Source: Gemmatimonadaceae bacterium (GTDB lineage Bacteria; Gemmatimonadota; Gemmatimonadetes; Gemmatimonadales; Gemmatimonadaceae). From it: a stretch of 25,373 bases of DNA. The first letter of the stretch is position 1, and each line of letters starts with the position of its first letter. The notes under the pieces are model-generated. The model made no database searches. It had not been told where the DNA came from and saw only the letters and a program-made list of their open reading frames with translations. Shown in pieces: positions 11,047 to 18,044 of the stretch. The DNA lies in assembly GCA_035286525.1 (NCBI GenBank), contig DATHJR010000098.1, positions 1 to 25,373 of the forward strand. The letters run 5' to 3'. A program made the position numbers and the translations under genes.

Positions 11047-12645
11047 CTACAGCCCCGCGAGCAGAGTGTCGTTGTTTGCGGTGTTCTGGATTCGCTTGAT
11101 CAACCACTCCATTCCGGCCTGCGGCGGCATCTGCTGCAGCCCGCGGCGGAGAGTGAAGATCGCGTCGATCTGATCCGGGCGAAAGAGCTTGTCCTCGCGG
11201 CGCGTGCCGCTCGTCGCTACATCGATCGCCGGAAAGACACGCTTCTCGGCCAACCCGCGATCGAGCTTGATCTCGCTGTTTCCCGTGCCCTTGAACTCCT
11301 CGAAGATCACGTCGTCCATTCGCGATCCCGTTTCGACGAGTGCCGTCGCGATAATGGTGAGCGACCCGCCGCCGTGCTGGGGCGCCACCGAGCGCGCCGA
11401 ACCGAAGAACGCCTTGGGCTTCGCCATCGCCGTCGCATCGAGACCACCGCTCAACGTGCGCCCGGTGCCGCGCTCCGCCGTGTTGTGTGCGCGCGCGAGA
11501 CGCGTGATCGAGTCGAGCACGATGACGACATCCTTGCCCTGCTCGACGAGCCGGCGCGCGCGCTCGAGCGTCATGTCCGCGACATCGACGTGTCGTTCCG
11601 CCGGCTGGTCGAAGCTCGAGGCGACGACTTCGCCACGTCCCCATTCGATCATCTCGCTCACTTCCTCGGGACGCTCATCGACGAGAAGCACAAGCAACGT
11701 CGCCTCAGGATGATTGATCGCGATCCCCTCGGTGATCGCCTGCAGCAACATCGTCTTTCCGGCGCGGGCCGGCGCCACGATCAGGGCGCGCTGGCCGTAG
11801 CCGATCGGCGCGATCAGATCGATCGCCCGGCGCGTGAGCTCCGGGCCGACCTTCGCCGACTGTCCCGTCTCGAGCACGAGCTTGCGCTCGGGATAGGATG
11901 CGGTGAGCGAGCTGAAGTCCGGGCGACGGAGGGCACTGGTGGGGTCGCCGCCGTTCACGGCGGTCACTTCCGCCACCGCGAGCCGGCCGCGCTGGTCCCG
12001 GCCCGTGGTCGCCTCGACCAGGTCGCCGCGCCGAAGCGCGAACTGACGCACGATCTGCGACGGGACGAACGCATCGTTCGGCGAGGGGAGGTAGCTCTCT
12101 TCCGGGCGGCGAACGAACCCGCCATCGCGGGCCGAATCGAACCATCCAGTGGTGGTGCCGTCGGCAACGAGCACGGACACCGGCGCGTTCGCGTGCTGAT
12201 CGGGACGTGGGCCATTGCGCTGGCGACCGCGGCGACCTCGCCGGCCATTGGCATTGGCGTTATTGCCGATGTCGCGATTTCCGTTGTCCCGATTCCCGTT
12301 GTCGCGACCGCCGCCTTGCTCGCGATTGCCGCGGTTGTCCTCGCGCTCGCGATTGCTCTGGCTGTTTCGGTTGTTGTTGTACCGCGGCTCGCTGCCGCGA
12401 TCGCCGCGATCGTTCTGCGGAGGCGAATTGTATGGAGGCTGTTGCGGCTGCGGAGGGGCGGGAATCCCGGCATCGCCGCCATCCGAAGGCGGAGCCGGCC
12501 TGCTCTCCGGTAGCGCGGTGTCGCTTGGCGCCGGCAGGGATGAGTCATCGCGATATGGGCTGGACTCAGTGCTCGAGTCGAGCGGCGGGCGGCCTGGCGG
12601 ACGGTGTCCGCGACCGCGCCGGGTCGGGCGTCGACGTTCGTTCAT
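11047..12645 (-). CDS. rho: Transcription termination factor Rho with a low-complexity N-terminal extension
   Basis: APARAGKT P-loop, LVDERPEEV, DSITRLARA, GSRMDDVIFEEFKGTGN, SGTRRE, and a cold-shock-like RNA-binding segment. Start set at MNERRR (12645); the 12768 extension has no Rho-like features. Confidence 0.95.
   Translation of the reverse strand: MNERRRPTRRGRGHRPPGRPPLDSSTESSPYRDDSSLPAPSDTALPESRPAPPSDGGDAGIPAPPQPQQPPYNSPPQNDRGDRGSEPRYNNNRNSQSNREREDNRGNREQGGGRDNGNRDNGNRDIGNNANANGRRGRRGRQRNGPRPDQHANAPVSVLVADGTTTGWFDSARDGGFVRRPEESYLPSPNDAFVPSQIVRQFALRRGDLVEATTGRDQRGRLAVAEVTAVNGGDPTSALRRPDFSSLTASYPERKLVLETGQSAKVGPELTRRAIDLIAPIGYGQRALIVAPARAGKTMLLQAITEGIAINHPEATLLVLLVDERPEEVSEMIEWGRGEVVASSFDQPAERHVDVADMTLERARRLVEQGKDVVIVLDSITRLARAHNTAERGTGRTLSGGLDATAMAKPKAFFGSARSVAPQHGGGSLTIIATALVETGSRMDDVIFEEFKGTGNSEIKLDRGLAEKRVFPAIDVATSGTRREDKLFRPDQIDAIFTLRRGLQQMPPQAGMEWLIKRIQNTANNDTLLAGL
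12262..12306 (-). repeat. 3 x 15-nt tandem repeat encoding RDNGN-RDNGN-RDIGN in the Rho extension
   Basis: + strand units: attgccgatgtcgcg / atttccgttgtcccg / attcccgttgtcgcg. Confidence 0.8.
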
Positions 12646-13084: not shown

Positions 13085-13348
13085 TCATTTCGGGAACATC
13101 GTGTCGTTTACCTTGCTATCCATCTCTCGGACCAGCGTGATCAACCGCCGCACCAGCCCCGTCATTCGATCCACCGCCGCCACGTGCTCCGGGTCCAGCG
13201 TCGTCTCCATCGCGAGCAACTGTGCCTCGGCCAAGAGTGCCGCCAGGGGGTTGTTCAACGAATGCTGCACGAGCGCGGTAATCCGCTGTACGTCGTCGCG
13301 GCGCTGCTCGTTCTGTGAAACTGACGAATCGTTCGATGCTTCAGTCAC
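13085..13348 (-). CDS. Stand-alone HisKA (dimerisation/phospho-acceptor) domain protein, 87 aa
   Basis: H-box-like LVQHSLNNPLAALL followed by a second helix, with no ATP-binding domain. GTG 13348 has GGGAGG upstream. Confidence 0.75.
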   Translation of the reverse strand: MTEASNDSSVSQNEQRRDDVQRITALVQHSLNNPLAALLAEAQLLAMETTLDPEHVAAVDRMTGLVRRLITLVREMDSKVNDTMFPK

Positions 13349-13389
13349 GGCCGACGCCCCTCCCGCCGAGACGGTAAATTTCGCCAGTA

Positions 13390-13983
13390 ATGAGCCCTCT
13401 ATCGATGGATCCCTCCGCGGCGGTCGCGGCCGCCGTCTCAACATACCACGACACCAGCGACTACGGTGTTCTGCTCGAACGATTGCTGGCGATTGCGGAC
13501 GTCACCGAGCCTGACGCGCTTGCCGCCGCCGCCGAGCCCTACCTCGCGATTCCGGAGGTTTCGGGGCCGCTCTACGAGCGAATCGTGGCCGCGCGTCCGA
13601 ACGATTCACGGGCGTTGGTCATCCTCGCGAATTCGTATTGGCTCACGGGGCGCGGGCCCGAGGCAACAGGGGAGCTTGCGGCGCGCGCGCTCGCGGCTGA
13701 TCCGCTCAACCGAGGTGCCTGGCATCTGTGGGCACTCACGGAGGGGGTACCGCGCGAGCGAATGATGCGATGGAAGCAGGTGGTGGAGCGTTTCCCCGAG
13801 GACGATCTCGCGCGCGCGAGCCTCGCCGACAACGCGACGGGACTGGCATCGGGGGAGCGCGATCGGGAGGCGCTACAGCTCGCGATTCGAAGCTACGAGG
13901 TGCTGCGGCGCAAGGCGACGGATCCGACGCAGCGCGCCGCGGTGGAGCGGGCCCTGGCGACGCTGCGGAGCTGGACGCTGTAG
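13390..13983 (+). CDS. Hypothetical TPR-like helical-repeat protein
   Basis: TPR-like segments: YERIVAARPNDSRALVILANSY, ALAADPLNRGAW, VVERFPEDDLARASLA. No signal peptide. Confidence 0.65.
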   Translation: MSPLSMDPSAAVAAAVSTYHDTSDYGVLLERLLAIADVTEPDALAAAAEPYLAIPEVSGPLYERIVAARPNDSRALVILANSYWLTGRGPEATGELAARALAADPLNRGAWHLWALTEGVPRERMMRWKQVVERFPEDDLARASLADNATGLASGERDREALQLAIRSYEVLRRKATDPTQRAAVERALATLRSWTL

Positions 13984-13997
13984 CAGATTGACTCGAG

Positions 13998-14396
13998 CTA
14001 CGCTCGTACGTCGGCCGCGCGGAGCGTGAGCTGACGCGCGAGATCGACCAGGTCGCGGAGATCGAAGGGTTTGCCGAGGGATGCACAGCCGCAGGCGGCA
14101 ATCAGCTCGTGGGCGCGCTCGCTTCCATCGCCCGTGGTGATGATCGTGCGCTGACGCAGATGCGGTTGCACGGAGGCCGCGATCTCGAACAGCTCATCGC
14201 CTCCCATCTCCGGCATGCGGAGGTCGACCACGAGGCAGTCGAAATGCTCGTGATGCAGCAGATGCACCGCATCCTCGGCCGACTCGACCGATCGCACATC
14301 GAAGCCTGCGCGCGCGAAGCAACGCTCCAACGCCCGGCATATCGAATGCTCGTCGTCGACCACCAGAATGCGTGTCGCCCGCGGATCGTCACTCAT
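13998..14396 (-). CDS. Single-domain response regulator (CheY/Spo0F-like receiver)
   Basis: ILVVDDE, VVDLRMP (phospho-Asp), ITTG and KPF: the full receiver signature with no output domain. Overlaps the AraC gene stop by 8 nt. Confidence 0.92.
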   Translation of the reverse strand: MSDDPRATRILVVDDEHSICRALERCFARAGFDVRSVESAEDAVHLLHHEHFDCLVVDLRMPEMGGDELFEIAASVQPHLRQRTIITTGDGSERAHELIAACGCASLGKPFDLRDLVDLARQLTLRAADVRA

Positions 14397-15201
14397 TCAG
14401 CGCGCTCTCCCGATCACCGAACACATCCCCTGGCCGGCATACGAGCGCGGCCATTCGCAGTGAGAATTCTTCCATCGTGAACGCCGACCGCATGGTCGAG
14501 GGACTCATCCCCGTAGCCGTGCGGACCTGCCGCGCAAAGACGCGGATCGAGCTGTAGCCGAGCTTTTTCGCGATGTCCTCGAGCAGAAATCCCGGATCGC
14601 CCATGTAGTGCTTCGCCCGCGTGAGCCGGGCGACGAGGATCGTCGTGCGGGCGGACGCCAGGCCACATCGTTCGAACCATCGATCCAGACTGCGTCTCGT
14701 CATCCCCGACATCCGCGCGAGCTCCTCGACATCGAGGAACTCCTGCGGCGCTTCGAAGAGCCGAGTGATCGCCTGCACGAACAACGCTGGCGCGCCGTGC
14801 AGATGCGGGAGCACGTGCCGTAGAACCGAGTCACTCAGCCGAGTTGCGGGCAGCTGGTGGAGCAGCTGACGAAAGCGTCGGGGCTCGTCGTCGAAGCCGC
14901 GAAGAATGACGTGCTGAACGCCAAGCTTTGCGAGCATGACCGTCGCCTGCATCGAATCCGCCGCGAGCGTGGTGTAGATGACCACCGGCAGTGTGGGATG
15001 CCGAGCGAGCAATTCACGAGCCTGTCCCAGTTCGAGCCCCCCGGAGGTCCGTGGATCCAGAACAACCAGATCGACGGGACGCTCCCGGATGGCGAGTAAC
15101 AGCGCGCCCCAGCCATCGACCACCGTGAGTGAATGATCCCCGGCGAGAGCGATTTGTAGTTGGGCGGCGAGTGGGGCAGAGAGGCGGGCGAGGACTTCCA
15201 C
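14389..15201 (-). CDS. AraC/XylS-family regulator with an atypical N-terminal receiver domain
   Basis: C-terminal twin HTH (DVEELARMSGMTRRSLDRWF; LEDIAKKLGYSSIRVFARQVRTATGMSPS). N-terminal DLVVLDP and VVIYT are receiver-like. Confidence 0.85.
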   Translation of the reverse strand: MEVLARLSAPLAAQLQIALAGDHSLTVVDGWGALLLAIRERPVDLVVLDPRTSGGLELGQARELLARHPTLPVVIYTTLAADSMQATVMLAKLGVQHVILRGFDDEPRRFRQLLHQLPATRLSDSVLRHVLPHLHGAPALFVQAITRLFEAPQEFLDVEELARMSGMTRRSLDRWFERCGLASARTTILVARLTRAKHYMGDPGFLLEDIAKKLGYSSIRVFARQVRTATGMSPSTMRSAFTMEEFSLRMAALVCRPGDVFGDRESALNE

Positions 15202-15218
15202 GTCGGCGGGCGCATATT

Positions 15219-15252
15219 TGTCCTAAAACAGCACATCGATGTCCGAAAATGT
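15219..15252 (+). promoter_or_regulatory. Tandem direct-repeat operator in the araC/peptide divergent promoter
   Basis: TGTCCTAAAA (15219) and TGTCCGAAAA (15240), 21 bp apart. The same motif recurs upstream of the TPR gene. Confidence 0.65.
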
Positions 15253-15284
15253 GTGTTTACGACTGTTTGCGCTACCGTAGCTTC

Positions 15285-15320
15285 GGGATCAAGTCGCAAC
15301 GCCAATCACCACTTGATCCC
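15285..15320 (+). promoter_or_regulatory. 5' UTR stem-loop of the peptide transcript
   Basis: Perfect 10-bp inverted repeat GGGATCAAGT/ACTTGATCCC with a 16-nt loop. It starts 6 nt after a TACCGT -10-like hexamer and ends just before the SD. Confidence 0.55.
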
Positions 15321-15332
15321 CACGAGGTCGCC

Positions 15333-15461
15333 ATGTTTGTCCGCAAAATTACCCTGATCGCCGTTGTTCTGACCTCCTTTGCTCTTGCCGCTTGCACCTC
15401 CCCCACCGCGCCGACGCAGGATTGCGCGATTGCGGTTGGAAGCGGCTGCGGACCCAAGTAA
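15333..15461 (+). CDS. 42-aa exported lipobox peptide (candidate signalling peptide or lipopeptide precursor)
   Basis: MFVRK-ITLIAVVLTSFA-LAA|C-TSPTAPTQDCAIAVGSGCGPK. GAGGT SD 4 nt before the ATG and its own terminator. It is buried at the end of the spurious 15129-15461 ORF in the track. Confidence 0.75.
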   Translation: MFVRKITLIAVVLTSFALAACTSPTAPTQDCAIAVGSGCGPK

Positions 15462-15488
15462 GACCTCAAGCGGGCCTTCAGGGTTGCT

Positions 15489-15533
15489 CGACAGGGGGTT
15501 CCGGGGTGCAAACCGGAACCCCCTGTCGTTTCT
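15489..15533 (+). terminator. Intrinsic terminator between the convergent peptide and TPR genes
   Basis: Perfect 16-bp stem CGACAGGGGGTTCCGG/CCGGAACCCCCTGTCG with an 8-nt loop, followed by TTTCT on +. Confidence 0.8.
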
Positions 15534-16791
15534 ATCCTTCGACGCCCGCCGTCGTACGGAGCTCGTGCATTGCCCTTGCAATTCCCTGGACCTCCGGGGA
15601 CCAGACGGTGTTCCGAATCGTGGTCTGCGCCGCACGATGCTCGCGCTTCTCCTGAGTCTCCAGCTCTCCGAACAGCTCCTCGGCCTCGAAACGCAGCTGC
15701 CCGAGCTGATTTCGGGTAGCGACCTCGATCGCCTTACTGACCGCAGCCTTCGCAAGCACCATCTGATCGAAAGCGCGATGCCCCTGCGCCATATACATGT
15801 AGTAGTAGGTCTCGAGCGCCGGCGGCAGCGACGCGCCGTCGAGTTCGCGACGATACTGCTCGAACAACGTTTCCCTGCGCTCCTGCACCGCAACGTCGAG
15901 CAAGTTGAGCGTGGCCGTCCAGCGCATGTACTGCTCCTGCGCGGTGGCCGCAACGACGAGATAGGCATCACGCGCGGCGCTGAAAACGCCGAGCTGCGCG
16001 AAGCTCGCACCCAAATCGTTTAGCACGCGATCACGCGCCATCTGATTGCGCACGCCCTGCAACGCCTCGAACTGAAGAACGACGGCGTCCTCGAAACGGC
16101 CGCGCCTGAAAGCCACGAGTGCGCGATCGTGGGTTGCCGTCGCGCGGACCTCGGAGAGCCCCGACTCCTTGGCCTGCACGATCGTCTCGTCCAGCAGCGT
16201 TTCGGCGTAGGGAAGATTTCCGCGATCGATCGCGATGTTCGCTTCCTGAATTCGCGCGCGCAGGATGCTCATCATGTCATTGGTCATCGTCGCGACCTGC
16301 GAGGCGGCGGCGAAGCACGTCAACGATTCATCCCATTCCGCGAGCACGCGCAGGCACCGGCCCAGCTGCATGTTGGCCTGGATGACCATATCCGAATCGT
16401 GCACCGGCGTCGCGTACGAGAGCACGGTACGATAGACGTCTGCCGCCAGCGGCCACTTGGCGCCATGCTGTAGTGCGCGCCCGTACGCCATCAATCGGGG
16501 AGCGACCGTGACGATGCGCGGCTGCTCCGCCGTCACCATCGATTCGACGATGCTCGAGAGGAGTCCGCGCGTCGTATCGCGAAAGTCCATCGCGGCGATC
16601 TGATCGCGCACGGCATTGAGCCCCGGCGAGTCGTCGAGGACGACTTCCGCCCCTGCCGTCATCCAGCTGTCGAACAGGCGCAGCACGACCAGCGCAGCGC
16701 TCAAGCTCCGCCACTCGGCGCTGTCATTCGCCAGTTCGGCCAGCCGTTCGAAATACGGTAGATGGGCGAGCGGCCGCGCGATACTACTCAT
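15532..16791 (-). CDS. Cytoplasmic multi-TPR protein, 419 aa (RRNPP/Rap-like architecture, no HTH seen)
   Basis: About 7 TPR-like repeats (e.g. LGRCLRVLAEWDESLTCF, VLNDLGASFAQLGVFSAARDAY) after an ~90-aa helical N-terminus. Strong SD GGAGGAG. No signal peptide. Confidence 0.8.
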   Translation of the reverse strand: MSSIARPLAHLPYFERLAELANDSAEWRSLSAALVVLRLFDSWMTAGAEVVLDDSPGLNAVRDQIAAMDFRDTTRGLLSSIVESMVTAEQPRIVTVAPRLMAYGRALQHGAKWPLAADVYRTVLSYATPVHDSDMVIQANMQLGRCLRVLAEWDESLTCFAAASQVATMTNDMMSILRARIQEANIAIDRGNLPYAETLLDETIVQAKESGLSEVRATATHDRALVAFRRGRFEDAVVLQFEALQGVRNQMARDRVLNDLGASFAQLGVFSAARDAYLVVAATAQEQYMRWTATLNLLDVAVQERRETLFEQYRRELDGASLPPALETYYYMYMAQGHRAFDQMVLAKAAVSKAIEVATRNQLGQLRFEAEELFGELETQEKREHRAAQTTIRNTVWSPEVQGIARAMHELRTTAGVEG

Positions 16792-16866: not shown

Positions 16867-16939
16867 TTTTAGGACTTTCACATGACATTTTCGGACAATC
16901 TTTTGCCCGAACGCCGAGTTGGGCGCATTTTTTAGGCAC
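16867..16939 (-). promoter_or_regulatory. Direct-repeat operator upstream of the TPR gene
   Basis: Minus-strand copies GTGCCTAAAA (16939-16930), TGTCCGAAAA (16897-16888) and AGTCCTAAAA (16876-16867), spaced 42 and 21 bp. Confidence 0.65.
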
Positions 16940-17030: not shown

Positions 17031-18044
17031 TCAGCGCGCCGCTCGCCCCAGCGCCACGTTCGCCACCGCCGGCCGCGCGATTTTCGAGGGGTCGCCATCG
17101 CTCACGTACCGGTAGCCCTCCAGGCGATCCAGCATCTGCTCGAGCTGGTTGGCGAAAATCTCCACTCGCGGCAACCGCTTGGCATCGAACGCCGGATCGT
17201 ACGGGCTGCGCGCCGGGCCGCCCGCGACCTCGAGCACCGCATCGAAATCGTACCGCGCGACACGGCCGCCGTGCGGATCCTTCCACTCACCCGCTACCGC
17301 GAGCGCACGATTCTTCGGCCAGACTCCAAGCGGCAGCGCGAACGTGCGCACGCGATATCCGGGGACGGCGGAATCGATCGCCAACGTGCCGCGTGCGATC
17401 TGCTCCTGCACCACCGCATCGCTGTACTTCCCGAGGTTGGCGTGCCAGAGCGTGTGCCCGCACAGCTCGAAGCCCTCGTCGGCGAGAAATCGCATCTTCC
17501 GGAAGCGCCACTGCGACTTCTGTCCCTCGATGCCCTTCTCGCCGAAGAATGCGTGTCCGGCGGCGCCGCCGGACAGCACGCAGAACGTCGCCTTGTTCCG
17601 CCAGTCCGGATGCTCCTTGTTGAACGCCAGCCAGATGCCCACCGCGCTGTTCGAATCGATCTCCAGCGTTCCGTTGTGATCGATGTAGCTGAACTGGGAT
17701 GGCCCCGCGTCGTCGAACGTGAACACGACGGGCGATTTTCCCGCGGGCAAATCGATCCTTCTGTCGATCATCTCCGATACCGTGACCGGACGATAGCCGC
17801 TCGCGTAGAGGCGCTCGAGGTCGCGCCGAAAGTGATTGCGCTCGACGTGCCAGCGGGTGTCGCTGTCGCCCAGCAGGTGATACTCCAGAATCGGAATGCG
17901 CCCCAGCTCGTTCGGCGCGAGCTGATTTGTTTTCGAGCCCACTTCCCCGTGGTCTGCGGAGCTGACCGTCGCACTGCGTGACGACCCGTGGCAGGCGAGC
18001 GTGGCCAGGAGCAGCGAAGCGGTGATGCATCGGGCGCGAAACAT
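17031..18044 (-). CDS. Polysaccharide deacetylase (CE4/NodB) family lipoprotein
   Basis: Lipobox-like LAC, TFDDAG motif 1, GHTLWH metal-binding motif 2, FALPLG motif 3. Confidence 0.85.
   Translation of the reverse strand: MFRARCITASLLLATLACHGSSRSATVSSADHGEVGSKTNQLAPNELGRIPILEYHLLGDSDTRWHVERNHFRRDLERLYASGYRPVTVSEMIDRRIDLPAGKSPVVFTFDDAGPSQFSYIDHNGTLEIDSNSAVGIWLAFNKEHPDWRNKATFCVLSGGAAGHAFFGEKGIEGQKSQWRFRKMRFLADEGFELCGHTLWHANLGKYSDAVVQEQIARGTLAIDSAVPGYRVRTFALPLGVWPKNRALAVAGEWKDPHGGRVARYDFDAVLEVAGGPARSPYDPAFDAKRLPRVEIFANQLEQMLDRLEGYRYVSDGDPSKIARPAVANVALGRAAR

What the first reader, a model, noticed from the sequence alone, without database searches (positions are those of the whole stretch)
13085..16791. 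Gene set resembling a Bacillus Spo0F/Spo0B/Rap/Phr phosphorelay in a diderm
Seen within 3.7 kb: a DHp-only protein, a TPR-like protein, a stand-alone receiver translationally linked to a REC-AraC regulator, a small exported peptide and a Rap-sized TPR protein without HTH. There is no sensor kinase. Known: Rap proteins use an N-terminal helical bundle to bind or dephosphorylate receivers (Spo0F, ComA) and are switched off by imported Phr peptides. Inference: the TPR protein couples peptide sensing to the receivers by protein-protein contact.
Basis: inference. Interest (0 to 1): 0.65.

Follow-up and report, generated by a model that had tools for sequence, protein, structure and literature searches.

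The report
Lipopeptide signal circuit in soil Gemmatimonadales

Summary
All six genes are real, but they do not form one Spo0F/Spo0B phosphorelay. The host is a Gemmatimonadaceae MAG. The conserved core is a 419-aa TPR protein, a 42-aa lipobox peptide with a variable tip, and a pseudo-receiver-AraC regulator, together in 85 of 93 TPR loci across two families. The stand-alone receiver tracks this core (57 of 64 genomes with it, 3 of 57 without). The DHp-only gene (39/64 versus 22/57) and the small TPR gene (119/120 genomes) belong to the rho neighbourhood instead. A 21-bp-spaced direct repeat precedes the peptide gene in 63/84 loci (shuffled 1.2) and, in this genus, the TPR gene. A complex model docks the TPR N-terminal helices on the pseudo-receiver's alpha4-beta5-alpha5 face (score 0.66, best control 0.00; this mark passed 58/80 solved, 2/110 mismatched pairs). 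The AraC receiver lacks the acidic pocket and lysine; no RapH_N, Spo0B or Spo0A domain was found. Best reading: a Rap/Phr-like peptide-TPR-regulator autoinduction loop using a mini-lipoprotein precursor. Peptide-TPR binding, release, import and target genes are unshown. No paper found; this scan noted the triad before on other DNA.

The parts
15532..16791 (-). Cytoplasmic TPR protein, 419 aa, no HTH: four-helix N-terminal domain (about 11-87), about 7 TPRs (93-383), C-terminal helix (399-414). Core; putative peptide receptor and AraC partner
   Evidence: (pLDDT 94.6)
15333..15461 (+). 42-aa mini-lipoprotein: signal 1-20, Cys21, TSPTAP tether, variable tip with Cys31-Cys39. Core; putative signal precursor
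14389..15201 (-). Pseudo-receiver + AraC HTH regulator, 270 aa (Asp49 kept; acidic pocket and Lys absent). Core; output
13998..14396 (-). Canonical single-domain response regulator (D14 D15 E16, D58, T88, K109), overlaps the araC stop by 8 nt. Accessory but tightly linked
15219..15249 (+). Operator 1: two 10-bp direct repeats 21 bp apart, 18 nt from the araC start codon and just upstream of the peptide promoter
15256..15283 (+). Putative -35 (TTTACG) / 16 bp / -10 (TAGCTT) of the peptide promoter; read from conservation, not called by the consensus scan
   Evidence: one search found no sigma-70 consensus
16867..16897 (-). Operator 2: the same 21-bp-spaced repeat about 105 nt upstream of the TPR start
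15489..15528 (+). 16-bp-stem terminator-like hairpin between the convergent peptide and TPR genes
   Evidence: (z -4.6), conserved position
13085..13348 (-). HisKA/DHp-only protein, 87 aa, invariant His; orthologues elsewhere carry a degenerate receiver-like N-terminus. Neighbour, not core
13405..13983 (+). Small TPR-like protein, 192 aa, near-universal single-copy gene of the family, usually beside rho. Neighbour, not core

Best explanation
A peptide-controlled autoregulatory switch that works like Rap-Phr acting on a transcription factor. (1) The peptide is exported as a small lipoprotein (sequence shown; lipidation inferred). (2) Its variable C-terminal tip of about 7-10 residues is released by proteolysis, reaches the same or neighbouring cells, is imported and binds the TPR groove (inferred). 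(3) The TPR protein's N-terminal helices bind the alpha4-beta5-alpha5 face of the AraC pseudo-receiver, replacing phosphorylation as the input (model-supported). (4) AraC binds the 21-bp tandem repeats, activating the peptide and TPR promoters and probably repressing its own gene (sites shown; binding and sign inferred). I favour the TPR as an anti-activator relieved by the peptide (about 55-60%) over a peptide-dependent co-activator (about 40%). The stand-alone receiver is most likely an accessory phosphorylation input or output from a kinase encoded elsewhere.
For: Triad in 85/93 loci, fixed geometry. 26 of the 28 best genome-wide peptide-profile hits lie beside a TPR hit (against 11, 25). 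Some cassettes keep only TPR + peptide; paralogous cassettes in one genome carry different tips, and two tips are tandem duplicates of a 7-9-residue unit, as in duplicated Phr propeptides (PMC11343458). All 83 aligned peptides have Ala-1/Cys+1 and distinct tips. Purifying selection on the gene. Related contigs diverge from the first variable tip codon (15430) through the TPR C-terminal part, the least conserved TPR region in the genus (44-59% versus 72-89%). Complex TPR-AraC: 0.66/0.66/0.70, best control 0.00, runs agree in at least 90% of contacts, partner pLDDT at least 81; mark reached by 58/80 solved and 2/110 mismatched pairs, only roughly valid with my alignments; interface includes conserved TPR R38 (98%), AraC G94 (97%), D104 (92%). 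Operator spacing 21 in 63/84 loci versus 1.2 shuffled; only two strong sites in the genome, both in the module; AraC helix residue 173 tracks base 5 of the half-site (E-G 26/26), with about 4 changes on the tree. Rap structures are among the top folds (Z 21.6, 21.4). Lsp and three family-5 solute-binding proteins are encoded.
Against: No direct evidence that the peptide binds the TPR. Tip distance did not track putative groove residues beyond phylogeny (partial r 0.08, random-position null 0.066 +/- 0.054, 39% of nulls as high; weak test). No processing protease or importer is linked to the module. A lipid anchor and an outer membrane are obstacles to release and re-import. The best fold match is eukaryotic LGN (Z 25.1), so the Rap likeness may be generic TPR. 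No target gene beyond the module was found, and the TPR-side operator was detected in only 9/71 loci by the locus-specific test.
Confidence: 0.62

Rival explanations
1. Cell-autonomous export or envelope sensor: the same TPR-AraC switch, but the TPR reads unexported precursor or its own recycled fragments, reporting on Sec/lipoprotein maturation or envelope turnover rather than on neighbours.
For: The first 27 residues look like ordinary lipoprotein N-termini of this genome; no linked release protease or importer; the only operators found are inside the module.
Against: 83 distinct tips, different tips in paralogous cassettes (at least 14 TPR copies in one genus) and tandem tip duplication suggest address codes, which a generic stress reporter would not need; paired Cys in 59/83 tips suggests an oxidising, extracytoplasmic mature form.
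Confidence: 0.16
2. The lipopeptide stays anchored on the surface or on vesicles as an identity tag or effector; TPR and AraC control its expression, but the TPR senses something else.
For: Invariant Cys+1, residue +2 never Asp (outer-membrane sorting by the E. coli rule, own knowledge); groove-tip covariation not detected.
Against: TPR + peptide is the tightest pair, kept when AraC is missing and when the TPR is fused to a sigma factor; TPR C-terminal part and tip diverge together.
Confidence: 0.12
3. One reading: an orphan kinase feeds the stand-alone receiver (Spo0F-like), the DHp protein (Spo0B-like) passes the phosphoryl group to the REC-AraC (Spo0A-like), and the TPR is a Rap-like phosphatase.
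For: The stand-alone receiver is intact and tracks the module; the DHp His and the AraC Asp49 are invariant or nearly so; no kinase in the locus.
Against: AraC receiver lacks the acidic pocket and Lys; DHp gene not found in 25/64 module genomes and found in 22/57 without the module, beside the small TPR gene where checked; no SPOB_ab, Spo0A_C or RapH_N in the 89%-complete genome; predicted contact lies away from the active site; no Gln is among the conserved columns of the TPR N-domain.
Confidence: 0.07

Closest known systems
Rap-Phr (RRNPPA family) of Bacillus, especially anti-activator Raps (RapF/RapC on ComA) and Rap of plasmid pLS20
   Same: HTH-less cytoplasmic TPR protein of about 400 aa with an N-terminal helical protein-binding region, next to a small exported propeptide with a variable C-terminal tip, acting on a separate transcription factor; Rap folds align over most of the length (6t3h Z 21.4, rmsd 7.6, 317 aligned).
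   Different: Diderm host; lipoprotein-type precursor, often with a Cys-Cys ring; genes convergent, not an operon; target is a pseudo-receiver-AraC contacted on alpha4-beta5-alpha5, whereas RapH binds around the Spo0F active site (PMC3035606) and RapF binds the ComA DNA-binding domain (PMC3246441 abstract); no RapH_N match; Asp or Gly where RNPP proteins keep Asn in TPR4 (by repeat register).
NprR/PlcR/PrgX/Rgg/AimR one-component peptide receptors
   Same: TPR receptor plus adjacent peptide; autoinduction of the peptide gene (own knowledge for PlcR-PapR).
   Different: These carry their own HTH (PMC9765709); here DNA binding is delegated to a separate AraC protein.
Bacillus Spo0F/Spo0B/Spo0A phosphorelay
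   Same: A canonical single-domain receiver and a His-containing four-helix-type protein lie nearby.
   Different: No Spo0B alpha/beta domain, no Spo0A effector, output receiver degenerate, DHp gene not coupled to the module.
AraC/XylS activators on tandem direct repeats; atypical (pseudo-receiver) response regulators
   Same: Tandem half-sites two helical turns apart abutting the -35, divergent own gene (own knowledge; two literature searches returned nothing citable).
   Different: Input appears to be a TPR partner protein rather than a sugar, an aromatic or phosphorylation.
Enterococcal sex pheromones derived from lipoprotein precursors (cCF10, cAD1; own knowledge)
   Same: Signal encoded in a lipoprotein precursor and read by a cytoplasmic TPR protein.
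   Different: There the pheromone comes from the signal peptide of a large lipoprotein; here the variable, selected part is the C-terminal tip of a 20-residue mature chain.

Membership tests
RRNPP(A) / Rap-Phr | Small propeptide (10-100 aa) adjacent to the receptor gene | tested here: met
   42 aa, adjacent in 87/93 loci; criteria from PMC10075063
RRNPP(A) / Rap-Phr | Receptor of 250-500 aa with TPRs | tested here: met
   419 aa; TPR_12 in 79/83 members; model
RRNPP(A) / Rap-Phr | Sec/SPI signal on the propeptide (strict level); Sec/SPII accepted only at the 'relaxed' level | tested here: inconclusive
   Ala-1/Cys+1 invariant in 83/83, lipoprotein-like; SignalP not available; fits the relaxed level of PMC10075063 only
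RRNPP(A) / Rap-Phr | Sequence match to Rap N-terminal domain (RapH_N) or other RRNPP-specific models | tested here: not met
   None among Pfam hits of 83 members (25 of 26 families shown); none in own genome; no Rap among the best 60 PDB profile hits
RRNPP(A) / Rap-Phr | Strictly conserved TPR4 Asn binding the peptide backbone (RapF Asn227, PMC3601957) | tested here: inconclusive
   By repeat register TPR4 position 6 is Asp 44/Gly 22 of 83, TPR5 Asp 78, TPR6 Asn 40/Glu 38; no residue-level superposition on Rap was available
RRNPP(A) / Rap-Phr | Rap-like overall fold (N-terminal helical bundle + TPR superhelix) | tested here: inconclusive
   Rap Z 20-21.6 over most of the length, but LGN/Pins score higher (25.1, 23.7) and unrelated TPRs tie
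RRNPP(A) / Rap-Phr | Mature peptide is re-imported and binds the TPR groove | not testable with these tools
Rap phosphatase | Catalytic Gln/Glu (RapH Gln47) entering the receiver active site | tested here: inconclusive
   Conserved N-domain columns are H10, R38, D41; predicted interface is away from the active site; the canonical receiver was not modelled as partner
Spo0F/Spo0B/Spo0A phosphorelay | Phosphorylatable single-domain receiver | tested here: met
   D14, D15, E16, D58, K109 invariant, T88 nearly
Spo0F/Spo0B/Spo0A phosphorelay | Spo0B-type phosphotransferase (helical hairpin + alpha/beta domain) | tested here: not met
   HisKA only, chain ends after helix 2; SPOB_ab not found in genome
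Spo0F/Spo0B/Spo0A phosphorelay | Terminal regulator with an intact receiver active site | tested here: not met
   Acidic pocket and Lys absent in all 14 aligned orthologues, only Asp49 kept; Spo0A_C not found
Spo0F/Spo0B/Spo0A phosphorelay | Relay parts co-occur | tested here: not met
   TPR versus DHp: both 39, TPR only 25, DHp only 22, neither 35
AraC/XylS family | C-terminal double-HTH domain | tested here: met
   PF12833 52.6 bits over cut-off 33.6; AdpA DNA-binding domain fold match

The most novel reading that the evidence does not exclude
Gemmatimonadales independently evolved a cell-cell peptide language across two membranes: lipid-anchored mini-precursors release short, often disulfide-closed tips that are imported and read by a dedicated TPR family, which gates pseudo-receiver AraC regulators by direct contact, with a dozen or more orthogonal channels in some genomes.
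Probability: 0.4. Interest if true: 0.85.

Novelty: new variant of a known kind. Interest (0 to 1): 0.68.

Why it matters
Cytoplasmic TPR peptide receptors are described only for Gram-positive Firmicutes and their mobile elements (PMC9765709, PMC10075063, PMC12998947). A counterpart present in about half of sampled genomes of an abundant, mostly uncultured diderm soil order would extend peptide signalling across the outer-membrane barrier, give a new input mode for pseudo-receiver regulators, and supply many natural receptor-peptide-operator sets. The predicted interface, the operator and the candidate ligand make it directly testable by reconstitution in E. coli.

Tried and rejected
Inter-protein coevolution on 83 paired sequences (Neff 56) gave no enrichment at the predicted interface, same as shuffled pairing; underpowered (first run timed out). 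Tip-groove partial Mantel test: no excess over random positions. Search for fusions of the pseudo-receiver into longer proteins: none, weak evidence. Plasmid and viral searches with the window TPR: no match, close relatives only. Relaxed operator scan of the genome: nothing above background besides the two module sites; one third site in G010 led to no clear gene. Expression: no RNA holder listed; laid contigs show presence only. Sigma-70 consensus scan found nothing. The stand-alone receiver and the pseudo-receiver are no closer than generic receivers (hhalign 46%). The search for related loci with the diverse alignment failed. Literature searches for Gemmatimonadota peptide/TPR/AraC signalling and for RRNPP outside Firmicutes found no description; the library lacks most subscription papers. 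Rejected: chance clustering; spurious peptide ORF; small TPR and DHp as core parts; the 119-aa DHp reading. Many genus MAGs break between the peptide and the TPR 3' half; hairpin or strain variation could both cause it, so it was not used as evidence.
Full report
Host and genes. The window is contig C98 of an 89%-complete, 65% GC MAG; the nearest named record (97% identical TPR protein) is an uncultured Gemmatimonadaceae MAG. BamA/TamA-like and TamB-like ORFs lie upstream (by inspection), in line with a diderm. Order: rho (-), DHp-only (-), small TPR (+), single-domain receiver (-), receiver-AraC (-), peptide (+), hairpin, large TPR (-). Each is single-copy in the assembly at orthologue level.

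What belongs together. Searches of relatives and of 301 genomes of the phylum found the large TPR mostly in two families of the order; Atlas neighbours are Gemmatimonadota. In 93 fetched TPR loci the arrangement TPR> <peptide AraC> was complete in 85; two of the misses are contig ends. The receiver followed in 67 of the 85. In one sample of 121 family genomes: TPR module versus receiver orthologue: both 57, module only 7, receiver only 3, neither 54; module versus DHp: 39, 25, 22, 35; small TPR in 119 of 120 (two genomes with contig-cut TPR genes counted as positive; receiver orthologues picked by score and position). Kin are not independent, so these are descriptive. They show a core triad, a tightly linked accessory receiver, and two rho-side neighbours. 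The second family keeps the core and receiver without the rho-side genes and often has a REC-HD-GYP gene upstream. The module tree splits by family, suggesting presence in the order's ancestor with patchy loss and local expansion.

The peptide. 42 aa with a good SD; Met1, Ala20, Cys21 and Pro27 are invariant in 83 orthologues. Signal plus C-xx-S-P-T-A-P tether resembles the N-termini of long lipoproteins in the same genome, so it reads as a mini-lipoprotein, not a Phr-type Sec/SPI peptide (lipidation inferred). Mature length 18-39; all 83 tips differ; 59 have two further Cys, mostly 7-8 residues apart; 23 have none. In 15 genus-level alleles pN/pS is 0.20, with changes concentrated at tip positions 32-35. 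Two tips are tandem duplicates of a short unit ending G-G/S-x-T, pointing to a 7-9-residue mature signal, as for duplicated Phr peptides (PMC11343458). Genomes of one genus hold at least 14 TPR copies, many with their own tip, some without AraC. A sigma-factor-TPR fusion keeps both peptide and AraC.

The TPR protein. AlphaFold2 model pLDDT 94.6: four N-terminal helices, about seven TPRs, a C-terminal helix. Fold matches: LGN/Pins best (Z 25.1, rmsd 4.6, 293 aligned), then Rap proteins (Z 21.6, 21.4, 20.6), MalT, NprR. No Rap-specific Pfam match. Putative groove positions hold conserved R148, R255, D259, H221 rather than a conserved Asn. Within the genus the last repeats and tail are the least conserved, and related metagenome contigs diverge from the first variable tip codon through that part. 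A formal tip-groove covariation test was negative but weak, so I do not confirm the 'matched alleles' wording of earlier scan notes.

The output. The AraC N-domain has a receiver fold but lacks the beta1 acidic pair and the beta5 Lys, keeping Asp49: a pseudo-receiver. The controlled complex prediction placed TPR residues 5-64 on AraC residues 79-112 (beta4-alpha4 loop, alpha4, beta5, alpha5): score 0.66 against best control 0.00, runs agreeing in at least 90% of contacts, partner pLDDT at least 81; this mark was reached by 58 of 80 solved and 2 of 110 mismatched pairs, counts only roughly valid for my alignments. It supports binding and does not show it. RapH contacts Spo0F around its active site (PMC3035606), a different surface, so recall of that complex is an unlikely cause. 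Conserved residues R38, G94 and D104 lie in the interface; coevolution analysis was uninformative.

The operator. Upstream of the peptide gene a direct repeat with exactly 21-bp spacing occurs in 63 of 84 loci, against 1.2 in shuffles and at most 5 at other spacings. In the window it occurs exactly twice, before the peptide and before the TPR gene, and the same two sites account for all but one match in 18 genus genomes; the TPR-side site was found in 9 of 71 loci overall. Residue 173 of the first recognition helix tracks base 5 of the half-site (Glu with G in 26/26; Asp mostly C; Tyr mostly A), with about four changes on the tree, including one first-family locus that has both Glu and G like the second family: modest support that AraC reads the site. 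Position just upstream of a -35-like hexamer suggests activation; nearness to the araC start suggests self-repression (inference from AraC/XylS behaviour, own knowledge). No further regulon member was found.

Mechanism and verdict. Most likely a closed loop: AraC drives peptide and TPR; the TPR holds the pseudo-receiver; the processed tip returns and changes that grip. Shown: genes, conservation, selection, operator. Model-supported: TPR-AraC contact. Inferred: lipidation, release, import, peptide binding, sign of control, role of the stand-alone receiver. It works like Rap-Phr on a transcription factor but is not shown to be a Rap, and the Spo0F/Spo0B relay reading fails three defining tests. 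No paper describing it was found; earlier notes of this scan report the same triad in other genomes and the operator on this stretch. New here are the predicted interface, the separation of core from neighbours, and the receiver's linkage.

Unpublished genomes: G024 contributes one locus or genome to the counts and rows of alignments A1-A3 (without it the triad count is 84/92); G008 contributes two sites. Alignments A4-A7, the structure, complex and repeat statistics do not use them.

Noticed in passing
G347 and G372 (L281-L293): One genus carries at least 14 copies of the TPR family, many with their own lipopeptide and some without an adjacent AraC.
   Followed up: partly
L282:3963 (-), L297:3771 (-): Peptide precursors whose C-terminal motif is tandemly duplicated.
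   Followed up: partly
L237:4001-9574: ECF sigma factor fused to the TPR (P0069), followed by peptide, two convergent AraC genes and a second TPR, beside an IS element and a NACHT gene.
   Followed up: partly
L082:6078-9841 (G021:C10): Two TPR-HD-GYP genes with a 67-aa lipobox peptide between them, in a genome lacking the module's TPR: a parallel TPR-plus-lipopeptide design with a cyclic-dinucleotide output.
   Followed up: partly
L206:3249-6750 (G104): Variant layout: peptide, then AraC-TPR-AraC in one translationally coupled row.
   Followed up: no
L078:6157-8012, L083:4832-7338: A second, distant pseudo-receiver-AraC plus TPR gene pair, co-oriented and without a detected peptide, conserved in the genus.
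   Followed up: no
L267:2026-2823; window 13085-13348: DHp-only orthologues in other genera have a degenerate receiver-like N-terminal domain; the family sits divergently from the small TPR gene in about half of family genomes. Function unknown.
   Followed up: partly
window 13405-13983: Small TPR-like gene is single-copy in 119/120 Gemmatimonadaceae genomes, uncharacterised, usually next to rho.
   Followed up: partly
window 11047-12645: Rho with a long low-complexity N/R/G/Q-rich N-terminal extension; a second rho paralogue (54% identical) lies on contig C78.
   Followed up: no
L232:1500-1530 (G010:C174): A third copy of the operator outside the module, with no clear downstream gene.
   Followed up: partly
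G001, G005, G007, G008, G010, G011, G013, G015: Assemblies of many genus members break in or beside the peptide and the TPR 3' half.
   Followed up: no
window 17031-18044: Polysaccharide deacetylase-like lipoprotein upstream of the TPR gene, conserved in the genus and in some other first-family loci.
   Followed up: no
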